Source: Eledone cirrhosa
Lineage: Eukaryota
Reading direction: 5' to 3'
Assembly: GCA_964016885.1 (NCBI GenBank)
Contig: OZ024740.1
Coordinates: 402,504,001 to 402,568,000, forward strand
Length of the DNA stretch: 64,000 bases
Shown here: piece after piece, positions 37,114 through 37,624 of the stretch
Layout of the letters: each line of letters begins with the position of its first letter
Position numbering within the stretch: position 1 is the first letter of the stretch
Notes under the pieces: model-generated
The model's input: the letters and a program-made list of their open reading frames with translations, nothing else
Told to the model about the DNA's origin: nothing
The model's database searches: none
Position numbers and translations under genes: made by a program

Positions 37114-37441
37114 CATGGAACTCTTTTAACCATCTTTTGATCTTATATATTATATGTATATATATACATATATGTATATGTATACATATATATATAAATG
37201 TATATATATATACATATATGTATATATATATATATATATATATATATATATATATATATATATATATATATATATATATATATATATGTATATATATATA
37301 TATATGTATATATATATATATATATATATATATGTATATATATATATATACATATATATATATATATATATATATATATATATATATATATATATATATA
37401 TATATATATATAAGTGGTTATACAACAGTTAGTTCACCATA

Positions 37442-37481
37442 CCGAGAACAATTGTTTCACCTTCGCGGATCTTCAGCTCGG
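37442..37481 (-). ncRNA. Minimal type I hammerhead ribozyme in a 92-bp island
   Basis: Minus strand reads ccgag CTGAAGA tcc-gcgaa-ggt GAAA caattg TT ctcgg. The first stem II pair is a U-U mismatch. Confidence 0.8.
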
Positions 37482-37624
37482 GATGTGTATAGTGTTCCAC
37501 CACTATATATATATATATATACATATATATATATATATATATACATATATATATATATATATATATATATATATATATATATATATATATATATATATAT
37601 ATATATATATATATATATATATAT

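What the first reader, a model, noticed from the sequence alone, without database searches (positions are those of the whole stretch)
37413..37504. 92-bp island that is almost nothing but a hammerhead
Seen: between two long (TA)n tracts, an island with ends agtgg..ccact and inner tataca..tgtata. Stem I extends as catcccgag/ctcggtatg, so the whole island can fold as a rod capped by the ribozyme. Its stem III palindrome CAATTG is shared with the otherwise dissimilar family D. Inference: an ultra-minimal mobile ribozyme unit or a sharply truncated PLE end.
Basis: partly seen in the sequence, partly recalled or inferred. Interest (0 to 1): 0.7.

Follow-up and report, generated by a model that had tools for sequence, protein, structure and literature searches.

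The report
Stub of a Hydra-clade Penelope retrotransposon
This 92-base island is a one-off stub of a common jumping gene (a Penelope-like retrotransposon), made of its two alternative end pieces joined back to back around its ribozyme motif; it is ordinary as a sequence, but it likely records the element's enzyme starting two DNA copies at once.

Summary
The hammerhead is real (minus strand, GUU site), but the island is not a discrete unit. Its core has 602 exact genomic copies, its left junction one. Copies run 5' into a 2.6-kb Penelope-like element whose ORF carries the Hydra-clade motifs. They have ragged 5' ends and two fixed 3' ends 66 nt apart (short S, long L), both in (TA)n. The island is a 78-nt S arm plus the inverted 14-nt tip of the L end. 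The agtgg..ccact ends arise because both ends carry ACCACT; the tataca..tgtata pair is accidental. The U·U in stem II is the family state and occurs in 14 of 25 published Hydra ribozymes, so it is not a lesion. In 52 of 54 head-to-head insertions one end is S and the other L. Here the arms do not overlap, which favours two priming events over fold-back copying; later deletion is not excluded. Verdict: new family of a known clade, ordinary stub. The scan has noted such stubs in many other genomes.

The parts
37144..37412 (.). Imperfect (TA)n tract, insertion target on the S-end side
   Evidence: 1772 exact S-end/(TA)n junctions genome-wide
37413..37490 (-). S arm: 78-nt 5'-truncated end of the PLE pseudo-LTR, from -14 (relative to ribozyme C3) to the short 3' end
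   Evidence: 96% to L032 pLTR; end classes
37438..37485 (-). Type I minimal hammerhead motif: stem I 37485-37477/37446-37438, core 37476-37470, U·U plus 2-bp stem II 37469-37459, GAAA 37458-37455, palindrome 37454-37449, GUU site, predicted cut 37447/37446
   Evidence: cleavage untested
37413..37418 (-). ACCACT motif at the short (S) 3' end, inferred reverse-transcription start site 1
   Evidence: 76 of 151 arms end at +65 to +69 (one search lists 68, 7, 1 and 1 at +68, +67, +69, +65; 77 with +65)
37488..37490 (-). ATA at the junction: first bases of the S arm and also the complement of the target bases beside the tip (possible snap-back and microhomology)
   Evidence: inference
37491..37504 (+). 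Inverted 14-nt tip of the long (L, tail-bearing) 3' end, itself a small hairpin; inferred start site 2
   Evidence: exact 14-nt match to the element's tail tip; 1055 exact L-end/(TA)n junctions
37505..37624 (.). (TA)n tract, insertion target on the L-end side

Best explanation
The island is a single, heavily truncated head-to-head insertion of a Hydra-clade Penelope-like retrotransposon into (TA)n, made of a 78-nt short-end arm carrying the hammerhead motif and the inverted 14-nt tip of the long end, and it was likely built by two separate reverse-transcription starts. Shown: identity of both pieces, uniqueness of the junction, the parent element, two fixed 3' ends, and one-S/one-L pairing. 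Inferred: the RT-endonuclease cuts both strands of (TA)n; one DNA end primes at the S site and the other at the L site (2-3 nt TA/TAT match to the target); the L-primed copy stalled after the 14-nt tip hairpin, folded back to add ATA from the target, and was joined through ATA to the S-primed copy that had stopped at -14. The ribozyme is a passenger. As a lone copy without the upstream pLTR it is predicted to be nearly inactive, since this class needs a dimer.
For: Junction unique: 1 match with up to 1 mismatch; 2 matches for tip plus core within 30 nt, with different joints. Core: 602 exact copies. Parent: L032 is pLTR-ORF-pLTR with a hammerhead in each pLTR. Motifs RWR, DKT, YRDD, CxCx5C, YVG in L032 and CxxC, CxH in L033, shared by 22-27 of 27 aligned proteins, match PMC8557442 section 11. 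Ends: 147 of 151 arms stop at S (+65 to +69; 77) or L (+130 to +132; 70), with 5' ends from -2439 to +106. In end-selected loci 52 of 54 unique head-to-head insertions are one S plus one L (binomial p 8e-14). In 12 of 52 the S arm reaches more than 13 nt beyond the L arm and in 5 they do not overlap (after dropping L108, whose partner was misassigned). Of 10 L arms that diverge right after tip base 14, 8 are true breaks and 4 continue with ATA; 0 of 1 is a break one base later. PMC11167929 shows two RT start sites, both strands cut and a predicted dimer in vitro for a Poseidon element.
Against: 78 of 138 end-selected loci showed no inverted partner in a 900-nt slice (21 ran off the slice, 36 had short arms), so two-ended priming is not universal. 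Two exceptions: L218 is S+S; L148 is L+L but split by 168 nt of microsatellite. The island is atypical: 31 of 52 pairs break within 13 nt of each other, often at palindromes, which fold-back also predicts. PMC11167929 saw no strand difference in start site and no homology to the target. The snap-back rests on 4 loci, two of them 530 bp apart. Pfam gives no RT or GIY-YIG hit for L032 itself and only 1 and 2 of 27 for relatives; no solved-structure hit.
Confidence: 0.9

Rival explanations
1. Same parent element, but the island began as a typical ~200-bp head-to-head insertion and later lost most of its L arm by microhomology-mediated deletion of the palindrome.
For: Median size of head-to-head insertions is 200 bp. 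L250 and L251 show internal gaps starting at the same tip base through a CACT repeat. PMC3846280 reports microhomology deletions in Penelope copies.
Against: Breaks recur at exactly tip base 14 with different partners, including two bare tips rejoined to (TA)n, which fits a synthesis stop at the hairpin better than random deletion.
Confidence: 0.15
2. One priming event followed by fold-back self-priming, with the tail left on one side by endonuclease resolution (models in PMC3846280 and PMC8557442).
For: 31 of 52 pairs break within 13 nt of each other against 12.4 +/- 2.7 by shuffling; many joints are palindromes. The model also predicts one tailed end.
Against: Neither arm of this island contains the other's sequence, so neither can be a fold-back copy of the other unless sequence was lost later; 12 of 52 pairs have S-arm sequence absent from the L arm.
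Confidence: 0.12
3. A discrete 92-bp ribozyme element (retrozyme-, SINE- or MITE-like) that is itself copied around the genome.
For: Short terminal inverted repeat; two other tip-plus-S-arm islands exist (L257, L252); 50 of 84 S arms are 120 nt or shorter.
Against: The junction occurs once; the look-alike islands have different joints; no tandem array; the rod is no more stable than shuffles.
Confidence: 0.03

Closest known systems
Hydra clade of C-terminal EN+ Penelope-like elements (Craig et al. 2021, PMC8557442)
   Same: Under 3 kb, single ORF, RW[RK], DKT, CxCx5C linker, CxxC and CxH, (TA)n target, hammerhead near the 3' end, U·U at the base of stem II in 14 of 25 listed families, U at the cleavage site in 10 of 25.
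   Different: The ribozyme matches none of the 25 listed, so this is another family. Stem II has only 2 Watson-Crick pairs against 3-7 listed. The tail is 66 nt against the usual 30-40.
EN+ PLE insertions with an inverted 5'-truncated copy and a one-sided tail (Adineta Pen2a, PMC3846280; Fig. 2 legend of PMC8557442)
   Same: Head-to-head arms, tail on one end only, ragged 5' ends, palindromic joints.
   Different: Here the tailed arm is only the 14-nt tip and does not overlap the other arm; no target duplication can be read in (TA)n.
Poseidon_Ac of the green anole (PMC11167929)
   Same: Two fixed 3' ends downstream of the hammerhead, AT-rich target, AC-rich start sites.
   Different: Different clade; sites are 66 nt apart; both ends here share 2-3 nt with the target, while that paper reports no homology.
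Minimal type I PLE hammerheads (PMC4209133) and non-LTR retrozymes (bioRxiv 10.64898/2026.07.22.740005)
   Same: Type I topology, palindromic short stem III, predicted dimer cleavage.
   Different: U·U in place of the conserved G10.1-C11.1; not tandem and not independently amplified, unlike retrozymes.

Membership tests
EN+ Penelope-like element | Single ORF with RT and C-terminal GIY-YIG endonuclease between pLTRs | tested here: met
   L032: pLTR 3000-3384, 722-aa open frame with YRDD and YVG motifs, pLTR 5577-5961; profile support weak; this copy has a stop before the last motifs
EN+ Penelope-like element | 5' truncation, inverted upstream copy, optional tail on one end | tested here: met
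EN+ Penelope-like element | Hammerhead in each pLTR | tested here: met
   L032 positions 3245 and 5822
Hydra clade | RWK, DKT, CxCx5C linker, CxxC and CxH, no GxKF/Y | tested here: met
   this family has RWR; CxxC and CxH read from L033; the only G[KR][FY] hit lies in the endonuclease region
Hydra clade | Insertion into (TA)n, length under 3 kb | tested here: met
   1772 and 1055 end/(TA)n junctions; unit about 2.6 kb
Hydra clade | Placement with Hydra proteins in an RT tree | not tested
   Reference proteins were only read in the supplement; close similarity to Hydra-1_Obim by eye, not computed
Minimal type I PLE hammerhead | Intact core, NUH site, palindromic stem III | tested here: met
   subfamily changes inside the core region fall at N7 and loop II; the right half was the search anchor, so its conservation is biased upward
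Minimal type I PLE hammerhead | G10.1-C11.1 pair | tested here: not met
   U·U in 252 and 257 of 260 copies; common in the Hydra clade
Minimal type I PLE hammerhead | Self-cleavage as a dimer | not testable with these tools
   Palindrome duplex -8.2 kcal/mol; closing stem III in the monomer costs 1.4 kcal/mol
Retrozyme or other non-autonomous unit | Many copies with shared boundaries, or tandem arrays | tested here: not met

The most novel reading that the evidence does not exclude
Each head-to-head insertion of this family uses both RT start sites once, one per cut DNA end, as a protein dimer would; islands with non-overlapping arms and a recurrent abort at the 14-nt tip hairpin are genomic evidence for twin priming over fold-back copying in Penelope-like elements, and the clade's U·U hammerhead with a 2-bp stem II is a still-untested ribozyme variant.
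Probability: 0.55. Interest if true: 0.5.

Novelty: new member of a known kind. Interest (0 to 1): 0.27.

Why it matters
The island itself is ordinary debris. Its value is as a test case: how Penelope-like elements form inverted ends and tails is an open question (stated in PMC8557442 and PMC3846280). This family offers over a thousand junctions per end, a near-strict one-short/one-long rule and minimal products that separate the competing models. It also gives a compact Hydra-type hammerhead whose activity has not been measured in the papers I read.

Tried and rejected
Rfam at gathering and E-value thresholds: no hammerhead; only (TA)n-driven hits. Rod model: rejected. U-U as damage: rejected. 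A sharp 5' hot spot at -14, suggested by core-selected samples: in end-selected samples 5' ends spread from about -38 to +47 with most at -20 to -1, and mapping there is blurred by a second subfamily, so no discrete run-off product is claimed. 5' ends at the ribozyme cut (+30): some arms end at +26 to +36, but stem I microhomology explains them equally; unresolved. Pfam and PDB searches were uninformative. Folding of the tail gave a significant z in 1 of 4 stretches only. Lünse et al. 2017 is not held; I know it only through the review PMC6765202 (passages). Searches for a printed statement of the strict S/L rule or twin priming in PLEs found none, but the library lacks most subscription papers, including the Arkhipova 2005 and 2006 reviews. 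The organism was not determined.

Full report
Observation. The island lies at 37413-37504 between (TA)n tracts. On the minus strand it holds a type I minimal hammerhead with a GUU site; the predicted cut is between 37447 and 37446. Rfam does not detect it. The proposed rod is not supported: z is -0.07 on the ribozyme strand and -0.92 on the other. The inner tataca..tgtata pair depends on a variant found at 6 of 249 sites and on a junction base.

Copies. A DNA search of the own genome gave 1636 first-look candidates and 46 scored matches; only 2 of the 46 covered the whole island (itself and L006), most covered bases 12-92. The 27-nt junction occurs once with up to 1 mismatch, while the 31-nt core occurs 602 times exactly. 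Positions below are relative to ribozyme C3. In 97 de-duplicated loci, 151 arms reached the 3' region: 77 ended at +65 to +69 (short end, S), 70 at +130 to +132 (long end, L) and 4 elsewhere; 5' ends ranged from -2439 to +106. Exact end/(TA)n junctions number 1772 for S and 1055 for L. The tail between the ends is 66 nt.

Parent. L032 is pLTR-ORF-pLTR with a hammerhead in both repeats and a 722-residue open frame; L033 is a similar copy with an inverted upstream arm. The protein has RWR, DKT, YRDD, CxCx5C and YVG, and L033 adds CxxC and CxH. These motifs are shared by 22-27 of 27 aligned proteins, 26 of them taken from 499 hits, and are the diagnostics of the Hydra clade in PMC8557442 section 11. 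Profile libraries add little, and no tree was built.

Anatomy. The right 78 nt are an S arm starting at -14. The left 14 nt are the exact reverse complement of the L tip. Both natural ends carry ACCACT, which is why the island appears to have terminal inverted repeats. The tip is a small hairpin, and the next three bases, ATA, are both the complement of the adjacent target and the start of the S arm; the DNA hairpin is predicted at -3.7 kcal/mol. Genome-wide, 10 L arms diverge directly after tip base 14 under a pattern that omits A at its last place: 2 are point variants, 2 are internal jumps through CACT, 2 are bare tips in (TA)n and 4 join other pieces, including this island, L257 and L252. 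One match diverges a base later and is a 1-nt deletion. The three tip-plus-S-arm islands have different joints, so they arose separately.

Pairing rule. From 140 loci chosen only by their 3' end (the first listed on contig 1; 2 segmental duplicates dropped, 138 kept), 60 showed an inverted partner; after removing 6 loci that were the same insertion seen from the other end, 52 of 54 had one S and one L end. Exceptions are L218 (S+S) and L148 (L+L, split by microsatellite and probably two events). 78 loci showed no partner, 21 of them because the arm filled the slice. The two arms break close together more often than chance, 31 of 52 against 12.4, but in 12 of 52 the S arm holds sequence absent from the L arm, and in 5 there is no overlap (L108 dropped as misassigned).

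Mechanism. Shown: composition, uniqueness, parent, end classes, pairing. Inferred: a double-strand cut in (TA)n, priming of both ends at the two sites, early abort of the L copy at the tip hairpin, snap-back and joining through ATA. This agrees with the two start sites, two-strand cutting and predicted dimer in PMC11167929 (parts 1-2 of 4 read), though that paper saw no strand-specific choice of site. The fold-back model of PMC3846280 (passages) explains symmetric joints but not non-overlapping arms, unless sequence was lost later, which I cannot exclude. I put the identity at about 0.95 and the two-start mechanism for this locus at about 0.7.

Ribozyme. The core is intact across 260 copies; subfamily variation in the core region falls at N7 (171 A, 83 G) and one loop II base, and U·U is kept. 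File S2 of PMC8557442 lists U·U at that place in 14 of 25 Hydra families by my count, whereas PMC4209133 (parts 1-2 of 4 read) names G10.1-C11.1 as typical and reports low, dimer-dependent activity. A lone copy lacking the upstream pLTR is therefore predicted to be almost silent; this is untested. The bioRxiv retrozyme paper (abstract and discussion read; supplements closed) describes tandem pLTR derivatives, which this is not. Of PMC8557442 I read section 11, passages and supplement parts 1-2 plus excerpts; its figures were not seen.

Verdict. A new family of a known clade and a known kind of insertion at its minimal size. The scan holds 791 notes with the same key words in at least 42 genomes, none on this sequence or place; they are unchecked and count here only as leads. 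Interest 0.27.

Noticed in passing
G000 loci L002, L010, L024, L039 and others, S end: 7 short ends carry a (CT)n run before the (TA)n, against 53 with TC and 14 with T only. The run is not in the element and may be RT slippage at initiation or later expansion.
   Followed up: partly
L255 and L256 (G000:C11:41907966-41908523): Two bare L tips of about 13 nt inside (TA)n, 530 bp apart in opposite orientation: the smallest traces of this family seen.
   Followed up: partly
L236, L239: Reciprocal mini-islands: a short inverted S tip joined to an L arm.
   Followed up: partly
loci L114-L133 and others: A second subfamily with G at N7, a changed loop II base and a different stem I 5' strand, keeping U·U.
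   Followed up: partly
window 36801-37160: Fold-back repeat of another family with opposed hammerhead motifs (core at 36931 minus and near 37051 plus; stem III TGCGCA), directly beside the island's left (TA)n.
   Followed up: partly
window 33330-33520: Hammerhead of a third family (core at 33419, minus strand, stem III TGCA), with relatives in 7 locus records, some of them the same place.
   Followed up: partly
   Followed up: partly
window 37625-37757 and 38059-38310: Ends of other abundant repeats abutting (TA)n, with hits in 32 and 60 records; the region is a nest of (TA)n-targeting elements.
   Followed up: no
window 9105-9475: A near-perfect fold-back of about 360 bp starting at a (TA)n tract.
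   Followed up: no
window 45252-54524: A 35-bp tandem repeat of about 266 copies with extreme strand skew.
   Followed up: no
L032:931-2016, minus strand: A 362-aa frame resembling a mariner transposase (resemblance recalled, not searched).
   Followed up: no
element L tip, window 37491-37500: The 3' flank listed for Hydra-1_aJap in File S2 of PMC8557442 shares a 10-nt word with this family's L tip; may be chance.
   Followed up: no
G000:C1:402569943 (L097): Another copy of the family lies about 28 kb from the island, just past the window's end.
   Followed up: partly
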